DNA of 59,502 bases, the filler included, from Dugesia japonica (lineage: Eukaryota), in NCBI GenBank assembly GCA_001938525.1. It is 5 parts of 5 records of this genome, joined end to end, with 100 filler letters (N's around TTAATTAATTAA, not from the genome) between each part and the next. Parts side by side here need not be neighbours in the genome. Positions count along the whole stretch, not along the records: positions 34,355 to 47,799 come from MQRL01646320.1; 4 more parts are not named here. The stretch is one strand, 5' to 3'. Each line of letters starts with the position of its first letter. Position 1 is the first letter of the stretch. Below, in pieces: positions 8,426 to 59,502 of the stretch. Under the pieces are notes generated by a model. It was not told the origin of the DNA, searched no databases, and worked only from the letters and a program-made list of their open reading frames with translations. A program made the position numbers and the translations under genes.

Positions 8426-8730
8426 TAAATTATTTTTAACTGTAAATTTATTGGATAATTTTTTTATAATAAATATAATTAAATTTATTTAAAAGTGAGA
8501 TACGTAATTATTTTACTTATAATTTCTTTGTAAATATTTATAACAAATTTTTGTAATTTTATATTTAAAATATTACAAATTTTTTTATATTTAATTATAA
8601 TATATTGTCCATTATATTTCAAATTATTCCATGAAAATGAATAAAAGTTATTTTAATATCAAAATTATTTTAATTTGTTGATTTTTTATTTAGAAATGAA
8701 TTTAATTAGAAAATATGAATTAATGATGAA

Positions 8731-8955
8731 TTTTACAATTGCAATTATTGCGAGAATAATTGCTTGACTTAACCATTAATCGTATTTGAGATTTCATTAA
8801 ATTAAAAGCTTCGATGAAATTTTTTTGTTTTAGATAGTATTTCGAATTTTCGAATTTGTCTTCCTCTAGAATTGACTGTTGACACAGACAATGTCAAAAA
8901 TACGAAATATTATCAAAAACGTAAAATATTTTGATCGAAGCTTTTATTTTAATGA
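8731..8955 (-). mobile_element. Fold-back repeat (probable Penelope-like 3' end/pLTR), copy 1
   Basis: Inverted arms AAAAGCTTCGAT.AAA / TTTTGATCGAAGCTTTT plus tail TTTTACAATTGCAATTATTGCGAGAA shared with 40612, 47030, 54686 and 58605. Confidence 0.7.
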
Positions 8956-10338: not shown

Positions 10339-10438
10339 NNNNNNNNNNNNNNNNNNNNNNNNNNNNNNNNNNNNNNNNNNNNTTAATTAATTAANNNNNN
10401 NNNNNNNNNNNNNNNNNNNNNNNNNNNNNNNNNNNNNN
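10339..10438. other. Artificial contig linker
   Basis: 44 N + TTAATTAATTAA (stops in all six frames) + 44 N. Confidence 0.95.
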
Positions 10439-34354: not shown

Positions 34355-35349
34355 TATTATTATTAATTCCACCCATTACATTAGAATTACATGAATAAAA
34401 ATAAACTAACATGGACTGCAACTCGATCAAGAGCAAGCACATTGGGGTGAGTTCATTTGCTACTTCTTCTACCCATTTTTTAGATTCTTCTGAGTCAGAA
34501 ATCGTTGCAACCCAAATTTTATATGGTTAAATATTTACCGTGGATATTCTCGATTTTCGGTAATTTTCCAATAATAAAGATTGATTAATATTGCTTTTTT
34601 CTTCGAGGTTCAGTTATGTATGAATTTTCACTTAAGAATTATTTTGTTTTTTTTGGTGTCCGTTGTCTAAAATTTGAACAGTATTTATACTGTTTCTCTT
34701 TACACCCTCATTCCATTCATTGGTGGATATAAATTCTTGGCGTTTTTATTGGCCANNNNNNNNNNNNNNNNNNNNNNNNNNNNNNNNNNNNNNNNNNNNN
34801 NACATTATTGGTCAATCTTCAAACCCTTATAACTTCTTTCCCATCCTTGCCATGATTTTCTAACTTTAATTTTCGAATTCTCCGATTTTTTCTTGATCAG
34901 AACTTTCTAAATTAGTAATTTTGGCACCACTAGAAGTCCTACTTTTCTTAGTTTTTTATAGAAAATTTAATTTTCTATTTAAAGTATATCATTTTAATTC
35001 TTATGATTCATTTTATTTAAATAAAACAAATTATTTATTTTATTTTCGTTGTACATCCTAATTAAGTGCTCATTTCTTTGTTCTTTCTGATTTATTTTGT
35101 TTCATTGTTTTTCTTCTATTGATTAATTAATTNNNNNNNNNNNNNNNNNNNNNNNNNNNNNNNNNNNNNNNNNNNNNNNNNNNNNNNNNNNNNNNNNNNN
35201 NNNNNNNNNNNNNNNNNNNNNNNNNNNNNNNNNNNNNNNNNNNNNNNNNNNNNNNNCTGGTTTACCCATTTCCGAGCTGCTTCTTGTTGTAATTTCGGTT
35301 ATTTCATTGGCCTTGATTACCAATCCCAATTGTCCCTTCCTCATAATAC

Positions 35350-36864
35350 ACTCATAAAGCCTATAATACACGGTTACTATGTAATTAATGCAAGGTAACT
35401 ACACAAATAATAAACTCATAAACCCTATATTACTTGGTTGCTAGCTCAATAAAACATGGTAACTATGATTTGTTATCTTAATTATATAAATAAACCCTAT
35501 ACCCGATATCATGTAATTATATCTTAAAAAATATCAAGACTGCTCGATGTCTTGTAATAATATCTTAAAAGATATCAAGACTGCCCGATATCATGTAATA
35601 ATATCTTATAAAATATCTTATAAAATATCAAGACTGCTCATCTTATGCAAAATATAGAGAATCTGCATGCAAAATATCAAGATTGCCACATCTCTTACAT
35701 AAATAAATTAATTTAATTAAATTTAATTAAGTTTAATTATAATAAAAAATTTCCTCCATTGAAATGAAAAATTTCCAACGAAAATATTTTTTTTGAATTT
35801 CCCGCCAAAAATATTTTTTAGAATTTCCCGCCAAAATACTTTATTTTAAATTTCTTCCAAAAATAAATTTTAAATTTCCCGCCAAAAAGTTTTCAAAAAT
35901 ATCGAGACTCAACTCTTCCCCGTTCAAAAATATTAAAAAAAACAACATTTCCCCGTTCAAAATACCGAAAAAAACCAAAAATACATCAATTACTCAAAAA
36001 TACCATTACTTTCATTAAATTCATCAATTTAATCAAAATACAGCATTTTTAACCAAAATAAAGATTTCAAAAAATTATGACGNNNNNNNNNNNNNNNNNN
36101 NNNNNNNNNNNNNNNNNNNNNNNNNNNNNNNNNNNNNNNNNNNNNNNNNNNNNNNNNNNNNNNNNNNNNNNNNNNNNNNNNNNNNNNNNNTTTTTAACAC
36201 ACTTATACTACTTACAAAATAAACCAATCAAATTCAAGCTTTTAAAATAAAAAATCGAAGCACATTCGACAACCAACATCTTCTCCATCACATTACCTCT
36301 CCAACAAACTAATGACCAACAAATTCCATCCAGCACATACAAACCTACAGCCTCTATAAAAACTACCCACGATAACTCATACGACTGTGCCCGTGTGCCA
36401 CTACCCTTGTAGGACGAACCATCCATCCAAGCTCATAAGTCCTTTAGACAATATTTAGACCAAATTTTTGTCCAACCACAGCCAAATCTTCAAAACCACA
36501 AAAAAATTATCTCCAAGATCTACAGCTCCTTCTCCTCGTTTTTTCCACTCTTAAACACACAACCACACACACAAACTCAACTTGACCTACTTTTTAAAAA
36601 CCACCATAGCAACCAAAACACACACAAAATTTAAAAATACACACACACACTTTCAGGATAAAAAAACTGATTCGATCAAAAAAAAATTTGATCCGATCAA
36701 AAATTTTTTGATTCCAAAAGTCTTAGAAAGAAAAACGAGCACAAAAATCATGTCTATAAAACGTATCTCGAGCGTAATGTGTTTCCGAGTCCCCCCCGTG
36801 GGGGGGGTTATTTAAAAAATTGTGTCAGAAATAAATCGTGCCCGTGTGTCACTATCCACATACT
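35350..36864 (-). repeat. Maverick terminal inverted repeat (right end), TIR family 1, longest copy
   Basis: ATATCAAGACTG repeats, TTTCCCGCCAAAA x3, shared core block, CCCCCCGTGGGGGGG palindrome, ends GTCACTATCCACATACT. Confidence 0.8.
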
Positions 36865-37019
36865 CTAATTTGACATGTTAAAGTAAAAATTAAAGGGTTT
36901 TCATGCTTTTGAATGGTCCACTAGAAGGTTAATTTAACATTATATAAAGGTTTATCAACTCATTACAGATTGAATGATCATCAACTCATTTACTAGTTAA
37001 AGAAAACAATAAAGCTGTG

Positions 37020-37319
37020 TCACCTAGTTTAAACTTACCAAAGCGAAGCTGTGGTTACAATTTAGTCCAAAGATACTTTAGCAAATCTGCAGTCACCAGT
37101 CATAAATTGTACACCACCAATCAACAGTGGCCAGCAGTCAAAACAAGCTGTCAAAAAAGAATACATCATCAGTCAAAAATAGTACACCACCAGTCAAAAA
37201 TCATATACATACATACATAAATACATATGAAAAACAGTAAAAAATAGTACACCAAGCAGCCAGCCAAAAGTAGCTGACAGCGAGGGGGATATAGTGTTAT
37301 GCGCTACTACCTACATACT
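37020..37319 (-). repeat. Second Maverick-type right terminus with different subterminal repeats
   Basis: GTACACCACCAGTCAAAA-type repeats ending in GCGCTACTACCTACATACT. Confidence 0.55.
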
Positions 37320-38381
37320 CTCGCGGTCTAATTTATTGGATAAAGGATTGAGTCCGTTACAATTTGAGTGCAATATGAATGTCACTCCTGTGACATTCTA
37401 GCATTATTCGAGGAAATGAAATCATAATTATGGAAAATATAGGTATTCTTTTCAATAAAATCTATTATTATTTAAAATAATATAAATTTTCAGTATATTT
37501 CCATCAAATGATTATTTTTCTGCTTCTTTGCTTGCTTTTTGGTTCTCTTCAAGCTCATTGGTTCCCATGGTTTTTTCTATCTAGATAGTCAATATTCAGA
37601 TACATTGTTAAAAAATAAGAGTTCAACATAGAAAATACTTGATTTGTCATGAAAAACTAAACATATTAGTTTCAACAGATAAAGTTGATAAAGCCTTATC
37701 ATTGAAAATATAGGTTTTATTATGAAAATACGCGTTTCATCAAGGAAAGTACGGAATTTAACTAGAAAATAATGGTTTCAACATTAAAATGAGTTTATTA
37801 TTACATATAAGACCATTAAACCAGATACATTTAATAAAGCAATTGTTTTACGTATTCCTCATTACACCAGGATTTATTGATATTTTATCATTTAGAACAA
37901 TACAGAGACAAGCAAGTAATATATGATCAATTATTTGTTATATAAATTAGATTTCACTTTATTCTTTAGTATATTTCTATGCTTTACGTTAGAAAAAAGT
38001 ATAAGTAAGAACAAGAACAAGAAAGAAACAATAGTGGGAAAGAATAAAAAATTATTGGAAAAGTGCGAGAGGGCAACAAAGAGCGAGATAGTATTATCAA
38101 ATTTATGTGAAGTCATGAAAATTAATCTGAAAATCACAGGAACCTTTTAATCATCGTTGAAAATTTCAATAACCTTTTCTAAAACTAGTCGAATTTTTAC
38201 ATGAATATTTTAATTTTTGAAATTTCTATGTAAAAGAATATGAAAATAATTTTAAAATAAACATGAACTATTTATAGTCTTTTTAAAATTGTTGGGTTTT
38301 TAGGCTTTTGAATATCTGACTTTAATATCTGTAAGCTACCTATTTGATTACTTCCGTAACTAAATAAATCTGATATACTCC

Positions 38382-38481
38382 GTCTAGGGGCATACCTAAA
38401 AACCACAAGCATTTAGTCACCTCTGTGACATGCCCATCTTTTCCCGCGGGTTCAGCGCGACTTTGTGGTATCGCGTCTTAC
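38382..38481 (-). repeat. 100-bp GC-rich block, inverted copy of 44116-44216
   Basis: GTCTAGGGGCATACCTAAAAACCACAAGCATTT...TATCGCGTCTTAC. Confidence 0.9.
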
Positions 38482-39131
38482 GTTTCTTTTACAGGAATCC
38501 CAATTCCCACTCACTCATTGGCTTATTACTCGTTGTCATTCTAGATTTTAAACCGTTCAGAACAATGTCAAATATTCCTTTACACCATGCTCAGATCTCA
38601 CCCTCAATGCTGAATATTAACCAGTGCAATGGTGGATAATGAAATTGGAATTCATTTAGGTCACTATTTTCCAAAGTAAAATACAACTATTGTAATATAT
38701 AAATAATACCCTTCTACCACTTAAAATCTGCGGTTGACAAATCGAAAATTAACTCGTCTTATCAATAAAATAATAAATATTTCGAAGCATATTTAATTTT
38801 AGCAGAAATGATCCAATCATTCAGAATAATCTTTGAATGATCCTCTGCCATTTCTTTGCAAAATTTTTGACATCATTTCGGAAATAATTACCGTACGATA
38901 AATATATTTTATATTTCTCGAATTTGTTAATTTTCTTTGTGCTCAGTTATGGCATTTCCATGAACTGCCGAATAAACGACATAAACAAACTTAAACGAAA
39001 ATTGATCAACCCTGCCTCTGCAGATTATCGGGACTTACATATCACACTTTCACCCTTTTACTAGAGTTCAGCATACACAATAAAAAAATTTAAAATAAAT
39101 CACTAGTAATTTTCCCAACACATAAAAATTT

Positions 39132-39323
39132 TTATTTTTCAATTACACTCGAGGCCGTGCTAGCGTCGCTCAGCGCCAGCAAGCTCCTCATTATTTCCCT
39201 TTCTTCTCGTTCGTCTGGCGAATCCAACTCGCCTTCTTCACTCTCATCCCCACCGGGATCCATCTCCGGTGGTTGGACGTATAATACATAACGTGGTCGT
39301 TTTAAATTTCTTCTCTTATTCAT
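39132..39323 (-). CDS. Small basic/acidic orphan ORF, possibly an element accessory gene
   Basis: GC-richer than flanks; KRRNLKRPR followed by a D/E-rich tract. Confidence 0.3.
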   Translation of the reverse strand: MNKRRNLKRPRYVLYVQPPEMDPGGDESEEGELDSPDEREEREIMRSLLALSDASTASSVIEK

Positions 39324-40611
39324 TACCTAAGAAATTATGATCATTTTACCGATTTGCTCTATATATGATAATAATAAAAAAAATTTTTTAAACCTTAATT
39401 AATTAAAATTTATCTCGGAACGTTCTTTGCCCGACTTTCTTCAGCCTTCGGCCTATTAAATATTGTTCCTTAGTTCATAACACGAACCAGGAAAGATACC
39501 TACTGGAAACAAGCATCTTTCCTCGTCCCTGTCATCACTAAACTCCGTTACGTTTTCCTCATGACTTCCCTGCCTATTGACATTGATAAATTAAGTTCAA
39601 ACTGATAGTTGAATTTCACAAATATTAAAATAAAAAAAATATTTTTATTAATTTATTCATTTTTTTATAAATTGAACTATTACGTCACTAACTATTTAAC
39701 CTGTATTGAAACCTCAATAAATTACTAAGGTACTTTTATTGCACCCAAAAATAAATCTCAACCTAATAACAAATAAAGAATAATTGATACAAGATAAAAC
39801 AATGGTAAAATTATTTATTATCAATTTCAAAGAATTTTAGTTTAATTATAGCCTCGCATTCAACTCCGTATTCATAGTTAATTACGATCAACATAATTCG
39901 ACCACGCAACAGCACTACTTCGAAATGAAGAAATTTGACAGAATTCCACGTTCAACGATTACTTGCAATGGCTGGCATATATTTTCTTTTTAATAATATT
40001 AAACGCTAATTAGCGTTATTTATAATAACGATAGTGGGTCGTAGAGGCCCTTTTAATACTTTATTATAGTATTTTATATTATCTTTATTATTTGGCTTAT
40101 CATTTTCTACTCGTACATCAAAATTTCATCGTTGCACCACCAAATTTGGGTCCTCTACGCCCAATTTTTTTACTCGTTTCAATAATAATCGTATAATAAT
40201 TATAAAAACAATAATACCACAATAATAATGATAAAATAAGATCAAATATCTGATCCAGCACCCATTTCCACTTACGTTTCCACTTGTTCTCGGATAATTT
40301 CCGTATCATTTGGGGATGCTTTGTTAGCTCTTTTGCACTGAAATTAGGTGTTCTAACCCAACAAAATGATAAACTTTTTAATCATACTATGTTAAATTGA
40401 TTAAATACCTAGTATGAGTACAATACAAGTACAAGATAATTGCAGTATGAATTTCACTCTCGTGATACTCTAGCATCATTCAATGATTCTAATACGGACA
40501 AGTGACAACAAACTCCATGCTCCCCTAATTTTTTCACTTAGTAAAACACATTGATTTCAGTTGTTAATATTCCTGGGGGAGTAACTAGATTTTAATAAAT
40601 TAATTAATTTA

Positions 40612-40818
40612 ATTAAAATAAAAGCTTCGATCAAAACTTTTTTTTGGTTTTTGATAACAATTCTATACTTCGACTTATAGAAATTGTTATATAGAGTATA
40701 GAATTGTTATCAAAAACTAAAAAAAAACTTTTGATCGAAGCTTTTTTTTAAATGAATTCTGAAAAACAATCAATGGTAACATCCAACAATTATTCTCGCA
40801 ATAATTGCAATTGTAAAA
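40612..40818 (+). mobile_element. Fold-back repeat (probable Penelope-like 3' end), copy 2
   Basis: ~55-bp inverted arms plus tail ending TTCTCGCAATAATTGCAATTGTAAAA. Confidence 0.75.
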
Positions 40819-42270
40819 TTAATTAACTTAGTTTGATTTTATATACTTTTATAAACCCTTCATCATCCATGTATATTTTTCATATATAATGTGGATTTTT
40901 CAATATTCTTCTTCTATGTAATCACTTTATTCAATCGATAATCAACTTAAACATGTTCACTTACTCTTCCAATTAATTAATTTACCCATTGATCATTCAG
41001 TTAAGGGTTTAACATTTTCATTAGTTATACCATATATTAACCTCTATATTTCATACAATTCACACAAGAATCTTTACTTTACAACCAATAAACCCAAATT
41101 AACAGGGTTTTTTCACCTTAATATAGTAAATTCCTTTGAGAATATATTTTTAATTTGTTTTATTAACCATCTACTTGTTACATATAAATTTACTCAATCA
41201 TTCATTCATTCGTTTAAATATTTTAAAAATTAATTAAATTCCCAAATAGAAATTTTATTCAATCAAAGTAAAATTATTAATGAAAATTTTATGAAGATTT
41301 TAAATAATTCAAACTGTGAAAACTTTTACTTTGTTGCTTACATTTGAGTTACTTTTTATTTTTAATAATCCTTGATAGAGACTCTAATTAAAAAAGCATA
41401 ATTTTAACTATTTATTTTAAAATTTGTCTAAACTTAACGTGTTTTCACATAAACTCAAATTTTATATACTTTTACTGATAATTATTTGAAAACTATTTAA
41501 TTCATCATATTTAATTTATTCAATCATTAAAATTTGAACCAATTATTCATGAACCTATTATTAACCTTCCTAATCAATTAAATTAAATTACTTAAATTAA
41601 ATCAATTAGTTAATTAAATCTTCACGAAAATTTTATTCAATCAAAATAAAATTTAGAATCAACATATAAAAATTTTAAATTTAAATTATAAATTAAATTT
41701 ATTAAGAAATTATAACACACAAATAAAAATTGTAATATCCTAATTGAAATTATTCTTTTTTGATTTATTGAATTTAATTTTAGAATTATCCGTATTTACT
41801 GAATGTGAAATCATCAGTTGTAAAAGTTTTTCCTCTTTATAATTGTAAAAGCTTAAATTGCACTTCTTATTTTAAAAAGTTTAAAGTTAATCTATTTTAC
41901 ACTTAAAATTAATGTTTTAGGAATTTTTCTCATAATTATTTGAAAATTATTTATTCAATCCATTATATTGATTATTTTTAATGAATAATTACAAATTATT
42001 TCAAATTTATCTAATGCTTAAAAAGATTTTCATATTATAAATTAAAGTTTGAAATGATCTATTTTCAATAAATATTTAGAACTTATTTCAAATTATTTCA
42101 ATTTTTTAAATGCTTAATAAAAATTTACTATTATACATTAAACATGAATTAGAATACTCGCGAAATCTAATTTAATTTCAAAATTACAAGTAAAATATAG
42201 AACAGGTTAAATAATTAAATATTAATGCAAGATTGTCGAAAAGCATTTAATTAAAATAAAATTTTATTAC

Positions 42271-42605
42271 AGTAGGTAGATAGTGACGCACTGGATCACC
42301 CCCCTATTCAAAGAACATTTATAACAAAGACGATGAGTCATAAGTATGAATCATCGATGACTGAAACAAAGACGATGAGTCATAATGATGAGTAATCGTT
42401 TTTCTAGATCAGGATGAGTCATAAGTACGACTCACCGATGACTGAAACAAAGACAATGACTCATCGATGCATGAAACAAAGAAAATAAGTCCTAAGTATG
42501 AGTCATAATGATGAGTCATCGTTTTTCTAGATCAGGGAGAGTCATCTTTTCTCTAGATCAGGCTGACTCATCCACCCCGGGGGAAGTAGAAAAATTTTCT
42601 AGATC
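42271..42605 (+). promoter_or_regulatory. Maverick-type left terminus with AP-1 (TGASTCA) site array
   Basis: Begins AGTAGGTAGATAGT as at 11546; perfect TGA(G/C)TCA at 42334, 42376, 42415, 42457, 42499, 42512 and 42564. Confidence 0.65.
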
Positions 42606-42892
42606 ATTTTTCAAAAAAAATTTTTTTAATTTTTTTTTAAAATTTTTTTAAAATTTTTTTTAAAATTTTTTTTTTATAAAATTTTTTTAAAATTTTTTTT
42701 TAAAACAAATAAAAGAAAAACAAATTTGACTGATTAATTTTATTTATATTATAACATTATACTAGATCAAGATAGGCTTCAGGCCCAATAAACGGCAGTG
42801 GTTTAAGTGTTTTTTTATTTTGATTGGTTACGCGAAATATATTTAATATTAATGATAGAAAATCAGTTAATTTATTTATTTTTAACAGAATT

Positions 42893-43192
42893 ATGACCGA
42901 GTATTTCGAGCCGCATATCCCGTTGGTACTGACCAATGATGGTGACGAAGGGACCTTTTGGATCCCATGGAGGAACACCGTAGAGTTACTAGACAAACAT
43001 AAGAAACATTACGAGACGGATAAACAGTCAGTGAAGGCAGGACACCGAGAACCATTGAAACAGAATCTGGAATTGAAGCGCCAGCTAGAAACGGCCCGTG
43101 TCGAAAATGAAAAACTCAAACTCCAGTTGTCACAATGGCGATTAGAATTTCAAGCAACAGCTCGGGAGGTTGCCGGGCCACGCGACAGCTGA
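42893..43192 (+). CDS. Small leucine-zipper/coiled-coil protein (99 aa from ATG)
   Basis: Intact GC-richer ORF; LKQNLELKRQLETARVENEKLKLQL heptads; AATAAA at 43311. Confidence 0.5.
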   Translation: MTEYFEPHIPLVLTNDGDEGTFWIPWRNTVELLDKHKKHYETDKQSVKAGHREPLKQNLELKRQLETARVENEKLKLQLSQWRLEFQATAREVAGPRDS

Positions 43193-43622
43193 TGGAACAT
43201 CGACGCGTTGTGGAAAAAATTGGGGAGAGTGGTACGGCAGTTGTTGGACGACACTGGGGTCGCGATCGAGGTTCGAGACCCAGTAATCGTCAAAGTAGAG
43301 TCGATAAGTCAATAAATGTATTAATGTGTTCAAGAGTCGGGATTGTTTGTTAAATTACTAATCGTGATATGTATGTCACATTGTAGTTTGAATTTCTTTT
43401 TGTGTCTGCAGCGGTGGTCATAGGTTTAAGCGAGATTTGTTAATCATTATTTTCTTGTTCTTTGTAAAAGTGCAATTGAGGAGTGAATTTTCATTACGTT
43501 AGTTTTCGTACTGTCTTATGTCTTTGGATGGAACTTTCAATTGTAATGGTTGTTTCCTTTTATTAGTTTTATACACCTATCTTAATTGAAACTAGTGTTA
43601 TTTAATTGCCTCTAAAATTTTA

Positions 43623-43934
43623 GTGAACAAATCAAGCGAGGAGATGATGCCAAAAAGAGAGGTGGTACTATTACAAAAGAAGTGGAAGGACGATCGGCGT
43701 GAGCTGCGCAATGAGATTTTAAGTTTGAAAGGCCAGTTAAACAAAGTCTCATCCAAGTTTGCGCAATTGAAAGAGAAAGAGTTGGCTCTCCAACAGGCCA
43801 ATCNNNNNNNNNNNNNNNNNNNNNNNNNNNNNNNNNNNNNNNNNNNNNNNNNNCAATGTTCCTCACTCTGCGAACATTGTGGTTACATTATCGATCGCCA
43901 GAAGAGTCCACGGATACCGCGAATTAGGCCGTAG
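43623..43934 (+). CDS. Small coiled-coil protein with CxxC motif
   Basis: RRELRNEILSLKGQLNKVSSKFAQLKEKEL...CEHC; interrupted by an N gap; AATAAA at ~43977. Confidence 0.4.
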   Translation: MNKSSEEMMPKREVVLLQKKWKDDRRELRNEILSLKGQLNKVSSKFAQLKEKELALQQANXXXXXXXXXXXXXXXXXQCSSLCEHCGYIIDRQKSPRIPRIRP

Positions 43935-44115
43935 ATCGAGATGCTTGCTGACCATTGACGAAAATGTTGATACGTAAATAAATGTTCATTGGTGTTCAAC
44001 GAGTTGTTCTGAATTACAATTGTGTTAGATGTTGCAAAATCTTAGGTGATATTCCAAGTAAATCTTCAATGAGCTTATCGAGAATCATAGCTGTCAGAAT
44101 TCATGTATTCAGTGA

Positions 44116-44216
44116 GTAAGACGCGATACCGCAAAGTCGCGCTGAATCCGTGGAAAGAAAAGGGCATGTCACAGAGATGACACAAATGCTTGTGGTTTTT
44201 AGGTATGCCCCTAGAC
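44116..44216 (+). repeat. 100-bp GC-rich block, inverted partner of 38382-38481
   Basis: GTAAGACGCGATACC...TTTTTAGGTATGCCCCTAGAC. Confidence 0.9.
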
Positions 44217-45858
44217 ATGTAAATGAATTAGTGATTATTAAAAGCGAGATCCGTGAAATTCGATGAGAAAATTTAAAACATCAAATCCTAAAAACCCAAC
44301 ACTTATAATAAATATTATTTTTCATTATTGTGTAAATTTATGGATTTGGTTGGAACATGTAAATCATAGATTTTAAATGACATATTTAAATGAAATTTAA
44401 TTTCGTTAATTGTTTTTTATTAATTTAATAATAAAATTTTGCTTAATTTATTTAATATGTTCTATGAAATAATTAAGTTTAATAAAATAGTTTATTAATA
44501 ATATATTTTTTTAATAGGATTGAAATCCTCACTAGTTATTTCACTGGAGCTTCTTCAATCTATCAATCAATCCCTTAAGTAAAACAGCAATAATTCATCG
44601 AAGTGCAAGCAGCGTGCTAAATCAGTATAATTATTATTTCACTAATAATCCAAATATCATCCCAGCTCACCGAGCCTTAGCAACAAACCTATTTACCCAT
44701 TGAAACCTTGTATTCTCTCAACCAAAAAAATACGAAGATAATTGAAGATTGAAAATTCCGTCTTAAAATCTAATATGTGTAAATATTTTCATTAATTAAA
44801 TCCCCGAAGTTATTATTAATTAAATTTTTCCATTTTATTTCAAAAAAATATATAATTTAATCGTTGATAAATAAATTTTGATGAAAAATCGTGCTTCTAA
44901 TAAGCAGATATTATCATTTCAATGATTCTAAATACTTCGTTTTTCATTCTAAGCCTATCGTTGATATCAAAATACAAGCGTTATTTCATGCACAAATTGA
45001 CCTAAATTAAAAAATAATTTTTTTTTCAATAAAAAAAAGTTTTCATTATTTTAAATAAAATTATTGACTATTATTTTATTAGTAGTATAAATCAAAATTT
45101 TCAAATTTTTAGTTTCAATATTGAAATAGTCATAATTTTTAGAGATTAATTAATATAATATAAAAAATGTATTCATGATTTTTAAATTTATGAATTTAAT
45201 TTGGTTATTAGATTTTTATATGTTAAAAAAACTTTTTCACTATTTTAATTATAATTACTGACTATTGTTTTATAAGTAGTATAAATAAAAAATTTTCAAT
45301 TTTATATTACAATATTTGAAGTAGTCAAAATTTTTACAGAGATTAATATAATAAAAAAATGTAAACAATTAATCTGAAAAAAAAAGTATTTTTAGAAGTA
45401 GTTACGATGAACTGATTAGCGTCCTGTTAATATCATAAAATTTTCATGTTATTTTTCATGGTAATAACAGTAAGTATTTGATAAATATCATTCATTTTCG
45501 TTGTTATCCGTCAAACATTAACGACAGTTTCTATGAGGAAGTATTTGTTTTGACTTTGTTACAAATACAATTTCATTTTAATGCAATTATTATATACAAT
45601 TTCCTTGTATTTAACGTTTATAAATTTAGAACTCAATGAAGTAGATTTGTTACACGAAAGTTAAGGTGTGTTTTATTAAACAAATAATTGGTAGTTTTAA
45701 AAGTAGAAATTTTGTTTATTATAACAAATGCTTAAAATATTAAAGTAGCACTTTTTAAATTAGTCATCATAAATTTGTAAGTATATATTTGTGATTTTCA
45801 AATTTATGAATTTAATTTGATTATTCGATTTTATATCGCTGATAAAAGCAAATATATA

Positions 45859-46955
45859 CAGGCGCGCACCCAGGGTTTTCGCTAAGGGGGGCCCAAATAA
45901 AAGAAAACAACAATAATAAGAGTCGAGTTCAATTAAAATATTTTATATTCATTTTGGATAGGAAGGAATAAATTCATACACATATTTTGACAAATTTTCA
46001 TTGTTTTAATTACTTATACAAATACTAATTATACAAATATAAAAATTAAGATTAAATATTTATATTAAATTTTTGTTTATGTTTTGCTAATTTATTGAGT
46101 ATGTCCTTTACATTTAAGTTAACTTCTTGGTAGATGTTCAGCAAAGCTAACCCATTTAATAGATTTTCATCCATTGTGGAGCAAATAAGTTTTAGCCTTC
46201 TCAAAGTTGAAAATGATCTCTCATTTTTAGTTGTTGAGACAGGGATTGTAACAAAAATTCTTAATAATTTGTAAATATTTGGATAAACATCTTTATCACA
46301 TGCCTCTAACAGATTTATTGCGTTGTTGTACTTTTCATTCTTAGAATTTTCCGTGATCTTGAAATAACTTTAATGATTTTTTATGAGCTTGGGAGGAGCT
46401 AAAAAACATACATGCTTAACCCAATTGCGTAACTAGACTTTTCTATTCCCGGGGTAAGTGTTAAACTTTCACTTTTTTTCACATTCACTAAAATTTTTTA
46501 TTCCTACTTTTATAATAATTTTTTGATATTAGGAAATTTAATTAAAAATTGACAAAATGTTTCAAATGATCTATTTGGAGCCTCGGAGCATATTTTCCGC
46601 TCGTCTACTTTGTTACGCATCTGCCTTAACCTGTGTATACCACACTTCTTTCAATTTTATACTACGTTTGGATCCAACTATTCTGATCTTCGGTTAATCA
46701 ACTACGTTTGGCTACAACTAAAATTGAAATAGATTTAAATATTTTATCAACACAAAAAGAGAAACAAAATTTACTAAAAAAGAAATTTAACATTTAAAAT
46801 ATTCGTCAATACCAGGCGCCATGATGGTCTGCAAGACAAACAATATTTTCTGCGTCCAAAAAAAATTTAATTGTTTTTTTGGTATGCAACCGATAAAATT
46901 TGGGAACCACTGCTATATATTTTTTTCTGATTTTCGGGGGGTGGGCTCGCTACTG
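45859..46955 (-). mobile_element. Deleted hAT element with C-terminal dimerisation domain (~46060-46350)
   Basis: CDKDVYPNIYKLLRIFVTIPVSTTKNERSFSTLRRLK...STMDENLLNGLALLNI; GC-rich CAGGCGCGCACCCAGG end at 45859; other end uncertain; a hAT MITE end TTTGGGAACCACTG at 46899-46912. Confidence 0.8.
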
Positions 46956-47029
46956 ATTTAAATACAAAGTATTCTAATCAATATCGTTTAATTTAAATTT
47001 AAACCTAAAATATATTCAATTACTATTTA

Positions 47030-47178
47030 AAAACGTCAAAGACAAAGTCGAAAATTCGAAATATTATCAAAAACGAAAAAAACAAATTTTGATCGAAGCT
47101 TTTATTTTAATGAATTCTGAAAAACGATCAATGATTACGTCCAACTATTATTCTCGCAATAATTGCAATTGTAAAAAA
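47030..47178 (+). mobile_element. Penelope-like 3' end, single-arm copy
   Basis: GACAAAGTCGAAAATTCGAAATATTATCAAAAA...GATCGAAGCTTTT...GCAATTGTAAAA. Confidence 0.7.
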
Positions 47179-47799
47179 TTTAAAGTTATTTAATTTTTGT
47201 TATTATACATAATTCATACTTTATACATGAATATATTGAATTTGTATATTTTTCTTTGGCTGTGGCTCTTTTAAATTATTTTACTAATGCGATTCCGGTT
47301 TAAGTTAAGCATGTCTGCTATAAAACGTCTAACAATCTCTGATGAGGAATTATTTTTTTAGTCACTTAGAATCGGCGGAAAAAATAAATGATATTTTATA
47401 AAAAATCTAAACTTTAGAAATAATACATGAATCCAACATATTCTGATACAAACTTGTTCTTATAAAACGTATTTCGTATTGAGGTTTGTCACATTAATCA
47501 ATTTCTCAAAATTTCCTAACAAACATTCTTTAAAACTTTGTTGTAATAAAAATTCTTCGACAACTTCAATGAATCTAATTACCCATTAAATTATTTAAAG
47601 GAACTTTAATTTTTTATGATTTAATTTTATAATTTAATACTATAACAATTTATATTAATAAACAATTTTATTATTTAATTAGGATTGGGAGTTATTAGAA
47701 GATAACTAATTAAAAGAAAAAATAACAATAGTCAAGTCTTAAAATTCTTATGACCTGTAAGACCTATCGAGAAGCTCAGGTCACGCCATATACGAGGCC

Positions 47800-48058: not shown

Positions 48059-51000
48059 TCATCATATACGTATATAGTAGCGTATAAATGTTATTGATGC
48101 CTAACGCTAATACTAATATGTTTGTGTAATAGAGAAAAAAGTGTATCACACAATTTACTGTAAGCAAAAGCAAGATAGGAAAATGGATATATTTTTCTTT
48201 CTATAATACGTGTGTATGTGTGTGTGAATGTACAATGTATGAATGAAAATATATTTGTCGAAAAAAGTGTCTGCTGATGATTTGATTGTTTTTTTGTTCG
48301 TTAAATTTTAATGCAGAAATTTTTTTATTGTAAGGAAATTATAAAATTTTAGAAATTTTATTTCAAACTTTAGTAGTTTTATCTATTTTTTCAAGTGTTT
48401 TAGTTATTATTCAATCGAAAAACCGGAAAAAGAGCTGTGCGTTTCGCTGAACATTTAACATCACAGTGATAGTATGTTGAAAAAATGAGTAAGGAGCGAT
48501 TAGAACTTCAACGATCATTGAATACGGAATCTAAAAGAAGATCAGGTAAACGACAAACACCAGAATCAAGAGAAATGCGTAGAAATAATCCTACTAAATA
48601 TTATGGTTTATCTAGCATCACACAACGTGAAATAATACGAAACGAAGCAATAAATTTTAACAAAAAATAGAGTGAGCAAACACTATTGTGGTTCATTTAA
48701 TATATTGTGCCAGTTTTATGGTTCCAAAAATTTTAAAGATGAAAGTCAACCTGATGGAAAATTTACAAGTTGTTGTCGGAAAGGGAAACTCAAACTGCCA
48801 AGTTAAAATAAGAATTCAATGAGCTATTCATTATTGTTTCCATTTGGTGAGCCTAAATGGCATCCAAATTGGCAGAGCAAAGTTATAACGAAGTATAGCG
48901 AAATGCGGTCAGAAAAAGTGTAAAGTATGTTGCCATATAACGCGGCATTAACAATAATTCGTGATAGTTTTAGTCCAATTATTTGTGCTGGAAAATTAAA
49001 AAAACAGTGGTTAGTTGATTCCTATCTTCAAATTGAAGCTAATAATTTGAACTATATAAAGCAAAATCAGAAACGATTACGTGCAGTGCAATATCAAAGA
49101 CTTGCCAATCATGTTTCAAATATAACAGAAAATGAAAACATTCCTGTTGGTATCTCCGTTATATTGCCATCAAGCTTTGACGGATATCCAAGAAATATAC
49201 GAGAACGTTGCTGTGCTGCAATCTCAACTTTTGCCAAAATAGACGCTCAGATTCATTCATAACTTTTACCGCCAATCGAAATCTGCCAGAAATAGTCAAA
49301 AATTTGAAAGTAGGTAATGCGGTGTGTGATAAACCTGATTTGCACAACTATTTAAAATTAAATTAGATGCTTTAATAAATGATATAACAATATCTGGAAT
49401 ATTGAGAGAAGTTCAAGCTTTTGTTTATAGTATTGAATTCCAGAAACTAGGTTTTTCACAAGCATTTTAGATAGATTAAGACGAAAAAATTGATCAATTT
49501 GTTTGTACAGAAATTCCATCAGAATAAAATTTTATATTACGTATAAAAGTTTTAAAAACATGATTCATGGACCATGTGAAGCAAATAATACACTCTCCGT
49601 GTATGAAAGATAGTCAATATAGTAAAAACGTTCCTAAAGATTTTAATAATGTTACTGTTCTAAACAACAATGGTTATCCATTATATTATCGCCATATGCT
49701 TGAACAAGTTGAAGTTAGAAGAGTGTTAAGGAACAATCGGTATGTAGTTCCTTATAATTTGTACTTGCTATTGAAATACAATGCACACATCAACTTGGGA
49801 GTCTGCGCATCGTTTAAAAAAGTATCTTTATAAATAAATTTATAAAGGTTTCAATTGTGCCAATTTTGTCATAACATCAGAAGGACAATCAGAATTTAGA
49901 CTGAATGAAATTAACAATTTTATCGATGGTCGTTATGTGAGTGCACCAAAAGCAATGTAAAGAATTACGGGAATACAAAATGCACGATCGTTCCAATCCA
50001 GTTATGAGACTCCTAGCCCATCTTCCCAACCAAAAAACAATTTTTTGATCCCGGAAATAAACAAGAAGCTCTACAAAATGCTCAATATAGAAAAACGAAA
50101 CTCGAAACCTGATTTGATCTTAACATAAAAGATCCAGAAATACATCAATGGTTGTGTACTGAAATTCCGAAGCATTATGTTTAAATGCGTAAAGAATGGA
50201 ACAAAGACAAAGAGGATATAAGATAGTTGCTAGAATATACACTGTTAGTGTTACATATGAAGAATGGTTTAATCTTAGAATTTTTGAATCTTTTAAAGCT
50301 GCAGCAACGGCAAGAGAACTTCTTCAAACTAATGAAGAATGGGATAAGTATTTAAGAGATGGTGAAACGTATTTAATGCCAAAACAGCTAAGTGAGAGAT
50401 GTTTGCGTATATATGCTGCTTTTGTCAACCAGCACAACCATTGAAATTATGGGAGGACAATATTTGAAACTTAACGTTAGACTATATGCGAAAAGAATAA
50501 GAAGATATTGCGAAAAACAAATCATTTCATGAAATAAATTCGATTTTAAATCAACATGGATTATCAGTTAGTAGTCCTCCACAGCATATTATTTACGACT
50601 AAATTTAAGAAGCCGCTAAAGGTGAAAGACTGATTAAAATGCTCAACTCACAATAATTAGATGCATTAAATGAAATTATTAAAGCAGATGACAACAATGA
50701 AATAATCTGCCTTTTTTACATCAATGGACCTGGTGGTTCTGGTAAAACGTTCCTTTATAACACAATTACGGCTTTTATCAGAGGTCGAGGACAAACTGTA
50801 TTGCAATTCGCAACAACTGGTATAGCTGCAACATTATTGAAAGATAGTCGCACAGTTCACATAGGATTTAACCTTCCAGTTCCTTTAACTGAAACTTCAG
50901 TTTCATCTCCGGAAGCAGAAGATATTCGTAGAGTTGCTATCAAAATAATTGATGAAGCATCTATATTAGAAAAAATGGATTGCGGCGTATTGATAAACTT

Positions 51001-52116
51001 TGTGGAGAAATAACAAGCGTTGACAAAGTATTTGACAATAAAGTTATTGTTATTGGAGTAGATTTTCGTCAAACTTTTCCGGTTGTTGTAAGAGGACAAC
51101 GAACTGAAATTTTAGAAAAATATATTAAATAAAGTTCACTGTAGAAAAGTTTTAAAACTATAAAGCTAGCAACTAATATGAGAAGCAATGGTCAAACTGT
51201 TTATAATGATTGGTCATTAAAAGCTGTGGAAGGTAATTTACTTGCAATTGCTGGTATTTTGGAAGATATTATAGAAATACCACAAGAAATGATAAATACT
51301 GACAACCTTATTACATCAATTTGTAATAACACCAATCAAATTACAGAAGATGATTTTTCAAAAAGAGTGATTGTTGCCCAAAATAATGTACATACACTTG
51401 AAATGAACAATAAAACTATCAAAATGATTCCTGGTGTTCCAACATATTATCATAGTGCTAATTCAATTATCAATGATGACGTAAATGACGCTTTGCATTA
51501 TCCTACAGAATTTTTAAATACTCTAACACCATCTGGAATGCCTCCTCATATGTTAGCCTCAAAAAAGAAGTTGTCATCATGTTATTATGAAATTGAAATC
51601 CAAAAAATAGATTGTATAATAGCACGCGACTGATAATTGAAGAATTGTCTCATAATTTTATTTAAGCGAAAATCTCTAAATGTTGTAGAGGCATTACCGT
51701 TTATTTTGAAAGGCAAGCAGTTTCCAATTATTCAAGTGTGTGCAATCACAACAAACAAGTTTCTAGGTCAAAATTTTGATTACGTTGATATTGACCTACA
51801 AATTCTGTGTTTTCGCATGGACAAGTTTACGTAGCCCTATTTCAGTTAAGTCATTCGTCAAACATAAAAGTAAAAATTCAACCAATAATTCGACAAGGAA
51901 AACCATTAAATGACAATCGGCAATTTACAAAAAATATTACATACAAGGAAGTTTTATAACAAATTTAGTTTAATTTAAAGAATTCTATTGAAATAATAAA
52001 TAAAATAAAAAATAAAAATTTATTTAAAAATATATATAATCACAGCAAACAAGAAAGAATTTTTTGAAAAATTTTATGTTCAAACCTCCCTTCATAGATG
52101 ATGGGTAATACTCTAG
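48059..52116 (+). mobile_element. Helitron (formerly autonomous, decayed)
   Basis: 5' TC after A; 3' hairpin CCCTTCATAGATGATGGG then CTAG|T; Rep/Hel remnant inside. Confidence 0.9.
48485..51958 (+). pseudogene. Helitron Rep/PIF1 helicase
   Basis: SCCRKGK, LLFPFGE, ILPSSF.G.PR, FITFTAN, SIEFQK.G (HUH region decayed), MIHGPC, VVPYN, INGPGGSGKTFLY, IIDEAS, DFRQ, EFLNTLTPSGMPPH, QFPI; many stops and frameshifts. Confidence 0.95.
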
Positions 52117-52960: not shown

Positions 52961-54685
52961 CAAATAAGCAAAATATTGAAAGTTTAATTCATTTAAAACA
53001 TGAGAAATATACATTTATTTTAATATTAGCGCGCCCATTGTAAGTACCTTATTCTTTAAAAAAATTATTCATATGAGTAGAAATTAAAGGAAAAACATGG
53101 AAGAAAAGAAACAATATTTTCGTTGTTTGATGTTGTTTTATTTCCGTAAAGGAAAAATCGAAGACAACATGACTACTCTCTTATATCTAATTTGAATGAG
53201 AAGTTTTGAAAAATCGGTATATTTTATGTTTTAAACGACTAGAAAATTATAACCACTGAAATAACTTTCAGTGGTTTAAGTAAAATGGGTAACATATTTC
53301 ATTAAACATGACAAGTGAGAAGATTTTGCAGTATAATTAATTACTTATTCTATGGTTAAAAAATCAAAATCCTATGTCATATATAGAAAACACTAAAATT
53401 GTGCAAAATATTAAAACAGTTTTAATTCGAAATAGTTTTTAGTTTTGATAAAATAACTTTCATTTGACATTTGAATTAAAACTTTTTTTTGAAACAGGTT
53501 CCAAGTTATGATATTATCTAAACTTTAAGAAATGTTTTTTGGTTGAAATTTTCTATCAAATTAGTTTATATCTGGAATTAATTTTTAATCATACGACTAA
53601 GTTCATAAATTACAAATCTAGTTAATATTTAATTGGGAAACGAAAAAAATTATCTAATTATAAAATAATTAATTTAGAAAANNNNNNNNNNNNNNNNNNN
53701 NNNNNNNNNNNNNNNNNNNNNNNNNNNNNNNNNNNNNNNNNNNNNNNNNNNNNNNNNNNNNTTAAATTATCAATCACAAAATTATGTCGGTCCATTTTAT
53801 TGGATCAATTCTTAGCCAATAAGAATTGGTTTAATCAATTCATTATTTCATTATTATTTCAAAATATACTAGTAAATATACTAGACTAAGATTTTATTAT
53901 ATTAGAACTTTAAGCATAGAATTTTTATGTACTTTAGTTCACTTTTATATTTTTGTACTTCATAAAATAAAATTAAATTTATTTAACAATATTTTCCAAA
54001 TATTCCAAATGAATTATGAAATCACATTTTTTTACAATTCTTCATTACAATTTAGAAAAACTCTCAAAAATGCTAATACTGTCTCAATCGAAGACACTCT
54101 TGCAAATTACACACACCATTTCTCCGAATTCCTGTATTAAATCGATTTTTATTTTATATCTGAAATTCAGTTTTTGGAATATTATTGTTTTTCTACATGA
54201 TCTGATCGATGATTTTCTGACAATTTCTTCGAATATTTCCTTCTTCATTGTATCTTACATTTAGCATGGCCTTCATATCCACATATACAGCACATTAATT
54301 NNNNNNNNNNNNNNNNNTGATGTTCCTTCACTTGGTCTCATATTTTTGTTTTGATATTCTCTAAATTTCCTTTCACCTCTGACCACCTCTGCAAATGTTA
54401 GTTGCTTTATTGATGTAATTGTTTCTTCCATCATAATATTGTTCATATTTTTAATAATTTTTTCAATTTTTCCCGAATCGGTTATTTCTAACATTTTTAT
54501 TTCTTTCTGAATATCTTTGCCATTTTTATATATCAACATGTTCAAAAATGTTTATCGCTGTAGTCGATCCTTTTCGGTATTTTATAATTTCTTTAAGATC
54601 ATTAATATGTGAACTTGGTTTCTAAAATGCTTTTCTTAATATTTTTACAATTACAATTATGACGAGAATAATTGTTGGAAGTAAC

Positions 54686-54875
54686 CATTTATCGTTTTTT
54701 AGAATTGATTTAAAATAAAAGCTTCGATCAAAATTTGTTTGTTTGGTTTTTGATAATAATTCTATATTTCGACTTTGAATTCGCCAGGAAGTCAATATAT
54801 AGTCAAAATATAGAATTATTATCAAAAACCAAACAAACAAATTTTGATCGAAGCTTTTAATTTAAATGAATTCTT
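54686..54875 (-). mobile_element. Fold-back repeat (probable Penelope-like 3' end), copy with near-perfect ~65-bp arms
   Basis: 54710-54775 pairs with 54800-54865. Confidence 0.8.
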
Positions 54876-55317
54876 AATCCTTGTTGAAATTTGGTAACGC
54901 TAATTTTAACCACATCATAAATTAGAATTAATTTTCTATTGATCATTATTTTGATTACTAATCTTTTTATATTTTCCTCAATATTTCTGAAAATCTCCAG
55001 CAATCTCAAATAAACATTTCCAAATTCATTCTTCCATCATATAAATCTGACACAAGTCTGTTTATTAGAATCTGCGTAGTCACCGTGTTAACTTAAAACA
55101 CAAAATGATTTGCAGTATTTATTAAAAAAATGATATAAACACTGGCTGTCTTGTTACACGAAATATCTCTCTCTATCTTAACCTATGGCCTAATACAGGG
55201 GTGCACAACATACATATTTTTTATAGAAATACAATCCTATACAACTAATATTTCAAGGATTCACACATTCTCCTCCAAAATACTAGTTGCAAAATGACAA
55301 TTTAACAGTGCTATATA

Positions 55318-55835
55318 TTAGGTTGAGGGAAAAGTATGTCGCTTTTTCATATTAAAAATCAAAAGACGATAAACTAATCTAAATATGCACCATTGGCATC
55401 TACAACACTTTGCCAACGTTTTACGAGTTTGTTTATACCGTTTCTGAAAAAGTCCGGGTCACGGGAATCAATAAAAGAAGTGAAGCTATTTTGAACATCG
55501 TATTGATTATTGAACTGAATGCCTCGTATGAAATTGTCAAGTGACAGAAATAGATGAAAATCTGTAGGATAAATATCTGGGGAATAAGATGGGTGACGTA
55601 AAGTTTTGTAATTCAGTTCCTCCAATTTTTGTATATTTAATTTTCCAACGTGAGGCCGTGCGTTATCGTTCAAAAGCAAAGGACGGCTGCGATTCGTCAA
55701 TACTGGGTGTTTTTGCTTCAGTTTTTCATGACAAGATTCGAGTTGACGACATTATGATTCCGCTGTAATTGTTTCCCAGATCCCAAGAAATCATAATGAA
55801 TAATACCAACCATAGACCACCAAACGGTTATCATA
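55318..55835 (-). mobile_element. mariner transposon 3' half with TIR
   Basis: ITVWWS..GIIHYDFL, LLLNDNARPH, HPSYSPDIYPTDFHLF (DD34D), GI.KLV.RWQ.VV...GAY; TIR TTAGGTTG..AAAAGT after TA. Confidence 0.93.
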
Positions 55836-58604: not shown

Positions 58605-58680
58605 GATATTTTAATGAATTCTAAAAAACGATCAATAGTTACGTCCAACAATTTTTCTCGCAATAATTGCAATTGTAAAA
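58605..58680 (+). mobile_element. Tail-only copy of the Penelope-like 3' end family
   Basis: TTTTAATGAATTCTAAAAAACGATCAAT...TTCTCGCAATAATTGCAATTGTAAAA. Confidence 0.75.
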
Positions 58681-59502
58681 TGCATTAATGAGTTTGTAAA
58701 TAATGTTAATTTTCAAACCAGTATACAAATATAGAAAATGATTAGAATTTACTGTGTTGTGCTCTCAGTTCTGACGAATCGGAAGAGTGAAGAATTGTGA
58801 ATTACTGATACGGGTTTCATTTAATTTCAGATAGAAAATTTAGAATAAATTAAAACTGCTTTGTCATTTTCATATTATTGTATATTATAATGCCCGGAAG
58901 GTAAAGTTTTATAGTTTATAATTTATATCAGGGTTATGCAAACTTTCTGGTGTTGCAACTTGCATTCAGCAAAGTAATTAGGTCACGGGCAGCATGAATC
59001 AGTTAACATTTCATTTTTCGTTGCAAACATGTTAATACAAATTACAAAATAATATTTTAAATTTTTAAAATCTAAATTACGTAATATAAAGCGTTACAGA
59101 CAAATTCAGACGTAGGAAACTACATACAGCTAACCATCATACAATACGATAGATACGTTCCCAGAAAACGCCACGCTGTAGCTCCATACAAAAACCGAGG
59201 TTCGGTTCTAAAAATGAAAAAAACANNNNNNNNNNNNNNNNNNNNNNNNNTTTATAATAAAAAATCGTTTAGTAACAAAAGTAAATAAAATTTATATACA
59301 TAATATAAAAATTTCACTTTAAAATAAAAATCAAATACGTTTCTAAATAAAAAAAATTACGACTAATGAAAAAATTATAAATAAAAATGTATAAAAAAAT
59401 ATTATAATTTATGGAGTATTTACCAAACTTTATCATAATAGGCTTTCGTACAAAAATAAATCGTATTGCAAGAAAATTAATCGCATATATATGTATTCTA
59501 AT

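What the first reader, a model, noticed from the sequence alone, without database searches (positions are those of the whole stretch)
42271..44305. Maverick-terminus unit with an AP-1 site array upstream of zipper-only ORFs
Seen: the same 14-nt terminus as the Maverick TIR at 11546 (AGTAGGTAGATAGT) is followed by unrelated subterminal DNA with 7 perfect TGASTCA sites plus several near-matches in ~240 bp, a CCCCGGGG palindrome, an A/T-tract spacer, and then two GC-richer coiled-coil ORFs. ORF 42893 has bZIP-like leucine heptads but no recognisable basic region. Known: TGASTCA is the Jun/Fos site, and jun/fos are wound-induced immediate-early genes, including in planarians. Inference: an endogenous virus-like (or satellite, non-autonomous) element whose terminal genes are switched on by stress or wounding and whose zipper protein could dimerise with host bZIPs as a feedback switch.
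Basis: partly seen in the sequence, partly recalled or inferred. Interest (0 to 1): 0.8.

Follow-up and report, generated by a model that had tools for sequence, protein, structure and literature searches.

The report
Broken Maverick end with AP-1 repeats
This is most likely the leftover end of a decayed virus-like jumping element, with a real cluster of stress-responsive switch sites in front of two small genes of unknown kin, at least one of them broken, and nothing here supports the proposed feedback switch.

Summary
The features are real: the 14-nt motif shared with 11546, seven TGASTCA sites in 237 bp, the palindrome, the A/T tract and two GC-rich coiled-coil ORFs. The sites come from a local tandem amplification and are no better conserved than their flanks (6/56 vs 8/73 differences). 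ORF 42893 is the 5' part of a 140-codon gene broken by one stop. It has no bZIP signature, only 2 of 4 heptad leucines and no detectable homologue. There is no right terminus, target-site duplication or Maverick core gene. A diverged sister unit (about 40392-38280, minus strand) has the same length and right-end block but no AP-1 site. Best reading (0.5): the truncated left end of a Maverick-type element, with a diverged TIR carrying an AP-1/TRE-rich repeat followed by a GC-rich accessory or cargo region, as described for nematode Mavericks. Rivals are a 2-kb non-autonomous satellite family (0.22) and a patchwork of fragments (0.2). Stress-driven transcription is plausible but untested; the zipper feedback switch gets about 0.04. 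Host and genome-wide copy number could not be checked.

The parts
42271..42292 (+). Maverick-type terminal motif, best-scoring of six family members in the window; a true insertion junction is not shown
   Evidence: scores 28-37 for six sites, next best 10; the matrix was built from these six; flank sharing
42323..42575 (+). Diverged tandem array with 7 perfect and 6 near AP-1/TRE sites, built from modules of 11-42 bp
42575..42720 (+). GC palindrome followed by a T/A tract; layout weakly similar to the TIR starting at 36864
   Evidence: z 4.8, 0 of 100 shuffles; 1 of 5 comparisons
42745..42892 (+). Putative promoter or 5' leader: CCAAT-like boxes at 42785 and 42823 and a splice-acceptor-like T-tract-AG 4 nt before the ATG (inference; motifs recalled)
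42893..43315 (+). ORF1: 140-codon gene broken by one in-frame stop at 43190-43192; predicted beta-hairpin, helix, short coiled coil; orphan; AATAAA overlaps its last stop
   Evidence: (codon GC 0.59/0.34/0.53 before the stop, 0.55/0.33/0.65 after; 23 of 3000 shuffles give such a frame)
43316..43643 (+). Intergenic stretch weakly similar to the matching stretch of the sister unit
   Evidence: z 3.1-3.6; the only 1 of 5 segments to score; borders chosen
43644..43934 (+). ORF2: coiled coil (d series W,L,L,V,L,L), a 50-N gap at 43804-43853, then a Cys/His-rich tail whose frame is uncertain; orphan
44116..44216 (+). 101-bp non-coding block, 90% identical to 38481-38382, with two short hairpin-like inverted repeats and one arm of a 12-bp inverted repeat
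   Evidence: no Rfam match
44287..44301 (+). Second arm of the inverted repeat; homology with the sister unit ends here
38280..40392 (-). Sister unit B: about 2.1 kb, GC-rich short and decayed ORFs, same block and arm, no AP-1 site; its 5' end is only a remnant AGTATG (inferred)
41733..41919 (+). AT-rich segment homologous to the 186 bp directly before the 11546 motif: an outer part of the element or a shared insertion target
35500..36864 (-). Neighbouring Maverick-type TIR on the same assembly piece, with three E2F-like TTTCCCGC sites in a 26-bp repeat at 35798-35882

Best explanation
Unit 42271-44305 is the truncated, decaying left end of a Maverick/Polinton-type element. It runs: terminal motif; a short, diverged TIR in which a TGASTCA-containing repeat was amplified locally; then a roughly 1.6-kb GC-rich accessory or cargo region with two small coiled-coil genes, each followed by a poly(A) signal; then a conserved cis-block. 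In the intact parent the array probably worked like a viral TRE-rich enhancer: host bZIP factors bind it and Pol II transcribes the adjacent accessory genes during stress or proliferation. This copy is most likely inert, since ORF1 is broken and there is no second end and no core gene. Shown: the anatomy, the break, the absence of a right end, the sister unit. Inferred: Maverick origin, enhancer function, gene expression.
For: The motif family heads three TIRs that are 67-71% identical. The palindrome and T tract resemble TIR 36864. The window holds A32-like ATPase (E 9e-4) and adenain-like (E 5e-4) remnants, both below the Pfam cut-offs and on another assembly piece; the protease has 13 homologues. 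Both are Polinton core genes (PMC4028283, passages). The interior is the GC-richest part of the window: GC3 is 0.53-0.65 against 0.09-0.15 in three Maverick ORFs. [quoted passage not shown] 96% of vertebrate Maverick loci are eroded, and most intact ones have accessory regions (PMC8097293, passages). Tandem repeats rich in CRE/TRE motifs act as enhancers in baculovirus hrs (PMC13513840, passages).
Against: No integrase or other core remnant follows the block (0 of 12 frames in Pfam; no tblastn hit in the window). A and B lose homology at the same point, which random truncation would not predict. The motif reads AGT-AGG rather than (AGT)2, and flanks outside several motifs are homologous, so the motif may be internal. 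PolB-, integrase- and capsid-like remnants on the TIR-bearing pieces were recognised by eye from recalled motifs; no search confirmed them. AP-1 cores are not better conserved than their flanks.
Confidence: 0.5

Rival explanations
1. A and B are two diverged members of a roughly 2-kb non-autonomous satellite family. It borrows a Maverick terminal motif at one end and uses the conserved block with its inverted repeat as the other replication or packaging signal, relying on Maverick enzymes.
For: Both units are 2.0-2.1 kb from an AGTA(G/T)G start to the same end arm. They share layout, GC enrichment, a 90% identical block and 12-bp inverted arms around an unconserved spacer.
Against: There is no inverted copy of the terminus (best match has 4 mismatches) and no TSD. 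B's start is only a 6-nt remnant. The gene regions of A and B show no DNA or protein similarity. The block has 0 of 29 covarying pairs.
Confidence: 0.22
2. A patchwork in a transposon graveyard: a Maverick TIR stub with a neutral minisatellite, an unrelated GC-rich foreign fragment, and a roughly 190-bp Helentron-type (HINE-like) non-autonomous element that accounts for the A/B similarity.
For: The window is dense in hAT, Helitron, LTR and MITE-like relics. Read on the minus strand, the block has short subterminal inverted repeats near one end and a palindrome near the other, as in HINEs (PMC4067079, passages). The array shows equal divergence inside and outside the sites.
Against: The 3' arm lies about 75 bp from the end of homology (38-60 bp in mite HINEs) and there are no T-string junctions. 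Both blocks sit at the same position behind similar gene layouts, and the intergenic stretch is weakly similar too.
Confidence: 0.2
3. One reading: a wound-induced element whose zipper-only protein dimerises with host Jun/Fos and closes a feedback loop.
For: The dense cluster of optimal sites upstream of the ORFs. A N-x6-N a-position pattern with an ENxxL turn as in parallel dimeric zippers (pattern recalled). Weak atlas leads to TSC22 (0.90), HALZ and bZIP_2 (0.89), which the tool rates as weak evidence.
Against: ORF1 is a broken 140-codon gene with an N-terminal hairpin and a C-terminal extension. Only 2 of 4 d positions are Leu. No bZIP Pfam family matches at E<=1. Fold matches are generic coiled coils (best Z 5.8). 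The sister unit has 0 sites.
Confidence: 0.04
4. The ORFs are spliced exons of a host gene, and the motif and array are unrelated insertions upstream.
For: Acceptor-like T-tract-AG before both ATGs.
Against: GC3 is far above the 26% GC background, ORF1 has an internal stop, poly(A) signals follow each ORF, no homologue was found, and there is a sister relic nearby.
Confidence: 0.04

Closest known systems
Nematode Maverick left-TIR cargo region (bioRxiv 10.1101/2022.07.12.499685)
   Same: High-GC, poorly conserved gene region of about 2 kb directly inside a Maverick-type end, with possible introns
   Different: The cargo here is two short orphan coiled-coil ORFs, not WASP proteases or KRMA kinases; no integrase follows; the GC contrast here is against both Maverick core and background; an AP-1 array was not in the passages read
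Maverick/Polinton (polintovirus, adintovirus) elements (PMC8097293, PMC4028283, PMC8502044)
   Same: AGT-starting terminal motif, TIR-like subterminal layout, accessory ORFs next to the end, mostly degraded copies
   Different: Only one end, no 6-bp TSD, none of the core genes, motif AGT-AGG instead of (AGT)2
Baculovirus homologous regions with CRE/TRE motifs (PMC13513840)
   Same: Tandem repeats with palindromes and bZIP-binding motifs next to viral genes; a functional analogue for the array
   Different: hrs are CRE-dominated, dispersed through a circular genome and experimentally shown to be enhancers and origins; this array is TRE-only, single and untested
Helentron-associated HINE / DINE-1 (PMC4067079)
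   Same: Short subterminal inverted repeats and a terminal palindrome in the 190-bp right-end block
   Different: Arm-to-end distance of about 75 bp, no T-string junctions, only two copies seen, both in the same context
Zipper-only or basic-region-defective bZIP inhibitors such as CHOP- or GILZ/TSC22-like proteins (recalled, not from a call)
   Same: A short coiled coil without a basic region
   Different: No sequence, profile or fold evidence of kinship; extra predicted domains; the gene is broken

Membership tests
Maverick/Polinton | Terminal inverted repeats at both ends | tested here: not met
   No reverse motif downstream to the end of the assembly piece (best match 4 mismatches)
Maverick/Polinton | End motif (AGT)2 or (AG)3 (PMC8097293) | tested here: inconclusive
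   Begins AGT-AGG; same family as the motifs heading three related TIRs, one of which begins AGTAGT at 5231
Maverick/Polinton | 6-bp target-site duplication | tested here: inconclusive
   No right end to test; only 1-2 mismatch AT-rich 6-mers near 44303-44317
Maverick/Polinton | Core genes pPolB, RVE integrase, ATPase, protease, capsids | tested here: not met
   None in the unit or in the 1.5 kb after it; ATPase- and protease-like remnants lie on another assembly piece
Maverick/Polinton | Dispersed multi-copy family with full-length members | not testable with these tools
   No host genome collection; one diverged sister in the window; 0 matches of a 33-nt block motif in bacterial and archaeal genomes
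bZIP transcription factor | Basic region N-x7-R/K ahead of the zipper (signature recalled) | tested here: not met
   No such pattern in ORF1 or ORF2; no bZIP Pfam match at E<=1
bZIP transcription factor | Leucine at successive d positions | tested here: not met
   ORF1 d = L61, A68, L75, W82; ORF2 d = W,L,L,V,L,L
Dominant-negative zipper-only inhibitor | Heterodimerises with host bZIP zippers | not testable with these tools
bZIP / TSC22 fold | Structural match standing above generic coiled coils | tested here: inconclusive
   No Foldseek hit at E<=0.001 and best Z 5.8 among tied helices, from a single-sequence model
Helentron-associated HINE (block 44116-44301 only) | 12-15 bp subTIRs, the 5' one 2-4 nt from the end | tested here: met
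   12 paired positions with one bulge; homology ends a few nt outside the arm
Helentron-associated HINE (block 44116-44301 only) | 3' subTIR 38-60 bp from the end, T-string or TT junctions | tested here: not met
   About 75 bp; junctions are not T strings
Structured RNA family | Rfam match or covariation | tested here: inconclusive
   No Rfam hit on the block; best fold z -1.9 of 4 strands; 0 of 29 pairs covary, but only two sequences

The most novel reading that the evidence does not exclude
Maverick-type elements in this animal carry exchangeable arrays of host transcription-factor sites in their ends (AP-1 here, E2F-like in the neighbouring TIR) that time their expression to injury or to S phase. 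A and B would then be a 2-kb Maverick-dependent satellite family with its own orphan genes and a conserved end signal, whose intact members are induced by wounding.
Probability: 0.12. Interest if true: 0.7.

Novelty: new variant of a known kind. Interest (0 to 1): 0.3.

Why it matters
Nobody has shown, in what I could search, what switches animal Mavericks on. A TRE-rich array in a Maverick-type end is a concrete, cheap candidate: it predicts an injury-induced ATAC peak and transcript, and it offers a possible cis-mechanism for the Hydra Maverick that co-clusters with jun/fos (PMC13465017). No paper on AP-1 arrays in Maverick TIRs turned up in search listings; the library lacks most subscription papers and Repbase, and no supplements were read. 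As it stands, though, this is one decayed fragment with an unconserved minisatellite, so it is a lead and not a finding.

Tried and rejected
Homology. ORF1 (99 aa): 3 candidates, none at E<=10; 0 hits at E<=0.001 among 1.84 billion representatives. ORF2 (first 53 aa, longer proteins only): 17 candidates, none scored. Exact look-up found 0 of 6 window proteins, so the databases may simply lack this host. PHROGs, PDB sequences and phage tblastn gave nothing useful. blastn against phages hit only AT tracts. Atlas hits were weak or generic coiled coils. Fold searches gave generic helices. The 140-aa model had pLDDT 52.6 and was not searched. No complex prediction was obtained, so dimerisation stays open.

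Leads rejected after controls. ORF2 as a homologue of the Maverick coiled-coil ORF at 34008 (BLASTP E 1.9; 443 of 2000 heptad-preserving shuffles). The 13-nt motif invariant in three TIRs as ancestor of the array (a run this long in 897 of 10000 column shuffles). A 14-mer shared by the flanks of 37319 and 42271 (5 of 30 shuffles). A 6-bp TSD at 44303-44317. A structured RNA or ribozyme in the block. Protein-level links between assembly pieces. Confirmation of PolB, integrase or capsid remnants by profile or sequence search failed. Viral and metagenome contig collections stayed unchecked.
Full report
Setting. The window is AT-rich (24-28% GC per piece) and consists of five assembly pieces joined by 100-bp linkers at 10339, 24398, 34255 and 47800, so adjacency across linkers means nothing. 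It is full of transposon relics: LTR reverse transcriptase and RNase H, hAT and Helitron domains pass the Pfam cut-offs. An A32-like ATPase (30616, E 9e-4) and an adenain-like protease (33213, E 5e-4) fall just below them; 7 of 23 ORFs matched a TE or viral family. The protease has 13 unnamed homologues at 33-47% identity. PolB-, integrase- and capsid-like remnants I recognised only by eye from recalled motifs; five searches did not confirm them. The finding lies on piece 34355-47799; the motif at 11546 is on another piece.

The terminal motif. The 14-mer is identical at 11546 and 42271, with 6 matches at <=2 mismatches against 0.24 expected. A matrix built from these six sites (5228-, 11546+, 16229+, 36864-, 37319-, 42271+) finds no seventh good site: they score 28-37 and the next scores 10. 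Three of them head TIRs that are 67-71% identical over 500-840 bp. Vertebrate Mavericks end in (AGT)2 or (AG)3 and have 6-bp TSDs (PMC8097293, passages); this motif reads AGT-AGG, and only the 5231 end reads AGTAGT. Behind the motif, unit A does not align with 11546 (z 0.7), but its palindrome and T tract align weakly with TIR 36864 (z 4.8, 0 of 100 shuffles; 1 of 5 comparisons). Two results count against calling 42271 a proven end. About 190 bp directly before 11546 recur 350 bp before 42271 (z 9.4), and the flanks of 36864 and 16229 are also homologous (z 4.8). The motif may therefore be internal to a longer modular end, or these elements insert into each other. No inverted copy exists downstream on the piece (best match 4 mismatches) and no TSD can be assigned.

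The AP-1 array. Seven perfect sites lie at 42334-42570, six of them in the 9-bp palindrome, with six more one-mismatch slots. 0 of 5000 local shuffles reach 4 sites. They belong to a tandem array with periods 42, 29 and 26, so that test overstates independence. In three partly overlapping duplicated module pairs, site positions differ at 6 of 56 and other positions at 8 of 73: no sign of selection on the cores, with low power. The sister unit and four other motif-headed regions contain no TGASTCA. With a panel of 15 recalled motifs on 10 regions, two regions gave a clean multi-copy array: AP-1 x7 here and E2F-like x3 in the 26-bp repeat of TIR 36864. The AT-rich GATA motif also recurred in two regions, and the rest had single hits or none. 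Window-wide, the E2F count of 4 is marginal (5 of 100 shuffles).

The ORFs. ORF1 starts at 42893 and meets a stop at 43190-43192, but the frame stays open to 43315. Codon-position GC is 0.59/0.34/0.53 before and 0.55/0.33/0.65 after the stop, and such a 140-codon frame arose in 23 of 3000 shuffles. It is a real gene that is broken, not a zipper-only ORF. AATAAA overlaps its last stop, and another follows ORF2; T-tract-AG sites precede both ATGs. GC3 in three Maverick ORFs of the window is 0.09-0.15, so these genes are compositionally foreign to the core. ORF1 has no N-x7-R/K pattern (signature recalled), its d positions are L, A, L, W, and no bZIP family matches at E<=1. A single-sequence model gives a beta-hairpin and two helices (pLDDT 81, pTM 0.35) that match only generic coiled coils. 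Sequence searches found no relative of either ORF. The atlas offered TSC22 (0.90) and HALZ and bZIP_2 (0.89) as nearest named clusters, at a recognition value it rates as weak. ORF2 crosses a 50-N gap, so its tail is uncertain.

44116-44216 is 90% identical to 38481-38382, and a 15-nt arm follows in both after an unconserved spacer of 70-80 nt; nhmmer finds only this pair. The arm pairs with a 12-nt stretch inside the block. Unit B runs about 2.1 kb on the minus strand from a remnant AGTATG at 40392. It has short, mostly decayed ORFs and is the second GC-richest stretch of the window. Of five A/B segments compared, only the intergenic one scored (z 3.1-3.6; borders chosen); the gene regions did not. 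The block has no Rfam match, weak folding and no covariation. Nothing Maverick-like was detected after either block.

Mechanism. [quoted passage not shown] Accessory regions and short 'Oncoid' ORFs are also described (PMC8097293; PMC8502044, passages), and butterfly polintons have roughly 2-kb TIRs that contain genes (bioRxiv 10.1101/2025.02.07.637071, passages). I therefore read unit A as the left end of such an element, cut off after 2 kb (0.5). Its array most plausibly acted as a bZIP-bound enhancer of the adjacent genes, by analogy with baculovirus hrs, whose enhancer strength correlates with CRE/TRE count (PMC13513840, passages). TRE-containing chromatin opens after injury in Hydra (PMC8049744, passages), and one Hydra Maverick family clusters with jun, fos and creb (PMC13465017, passages). 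These make stress coupling plausible in general but say nothing about this locus. The shared length and end point of A and B keep a non-autonomous satellite alive (0.22). The HINE-like features of the block (PMC4067079, passages; partly met) keep a patchwork alive (0.2). The zipper feedback switch (0.04) lacks an intact zipper-only protein, a bZIP-type zipper and conservation of the sites.

Membership and novelty. Unit A fails two defining Maverick features (paired TIRs, core genes; PMC4028283, passages), so it is not filed as a Maverick but as a fragment probably derived from one. It is not a bZIP gene. I found no paper on AP-1 arrays in Maverick ends in five search listings; PMC6431247 (passages) added nothing on this. 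The original Polinton description and Repbase were not seen, and no supplements were read; cluster tables in the Hydra TE paper could bear on the wound link. Verdict: a real but decayed variant of a known kind, interest 0.3; the bold reading has probability 0.12 and would merit 0.7.

Noticed in passing
window 10339, 24398, 34255, 47800: Four identical 100-bp linkers (44 N, TTAATTAATTAA, 44 N): the window is five concatenated pieces, so the apparent Maverick 11546-36864 need not be one element; its two TIRs are only about 70% identical.
   Followed up: yes
window 35769-35888: 26-bp tandem repeat inside a Maverick-type TIR with three E2F-like TTTCCCGC sites (motif recalled).
   Followed up: partly
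window 37320-37414 and 40393-40490 (minus): A roughly 100-bp motif with a 9-bp-arm hairpin precedes AGTATG at both places, forming diverged direct repeats around unit B about 3 kb apart; its TGTCAC-N4-GTGAC core also occurs in the conserved block.
   Followed up: partly
window 36865-37319 and 15914-16228: Stacked terminal motifs at 37319 and 36864; the DNA between them is homologous to the DNA before the motif at 16229, suggesting modular or self-targeting ends.
   Followed up: partly
window 11978, 36382, 4760: A 13-nt motif invariant in three TIRs follows an internal terminus-like repeat; its only other close match (2 mismatches) is inside the AP-1 array at 42344. The invariance itself is chance-level.
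   Followed up: yes
window 40581-40826; also 8726-8955, 47043-47197, 54636-54898, 58607-58696: Palindromic MITE-like family with five copies; it produces spurious sub-threshold miRNA hits in Rfam.
   Followed up: no
window 7544-8488 (minus): 314-codon open frame with no Pfam match and a short basic GRP-K stretch; a host exon or an orphan element gene.
   Followed up: no
window 17279-17664 and 21385-21771: 89% identical 390-bp inverted repeats around an LTR-type RT fragment and a PolB-like remnant.
   Followed up: no
window 39132-39326 and 40118-40381 (minus): Short ORFs of unit B: one basic then acidic (63 aa), one with a hydrophobic stretch; no Pfam or PHROG match.
   Followed up: partly
window 46052-46369, 48924-51633, 55374-55751: hAT dimerisation, Helitron helicase and (by eye) mariner-like transposase remnants.
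   Followed up: no
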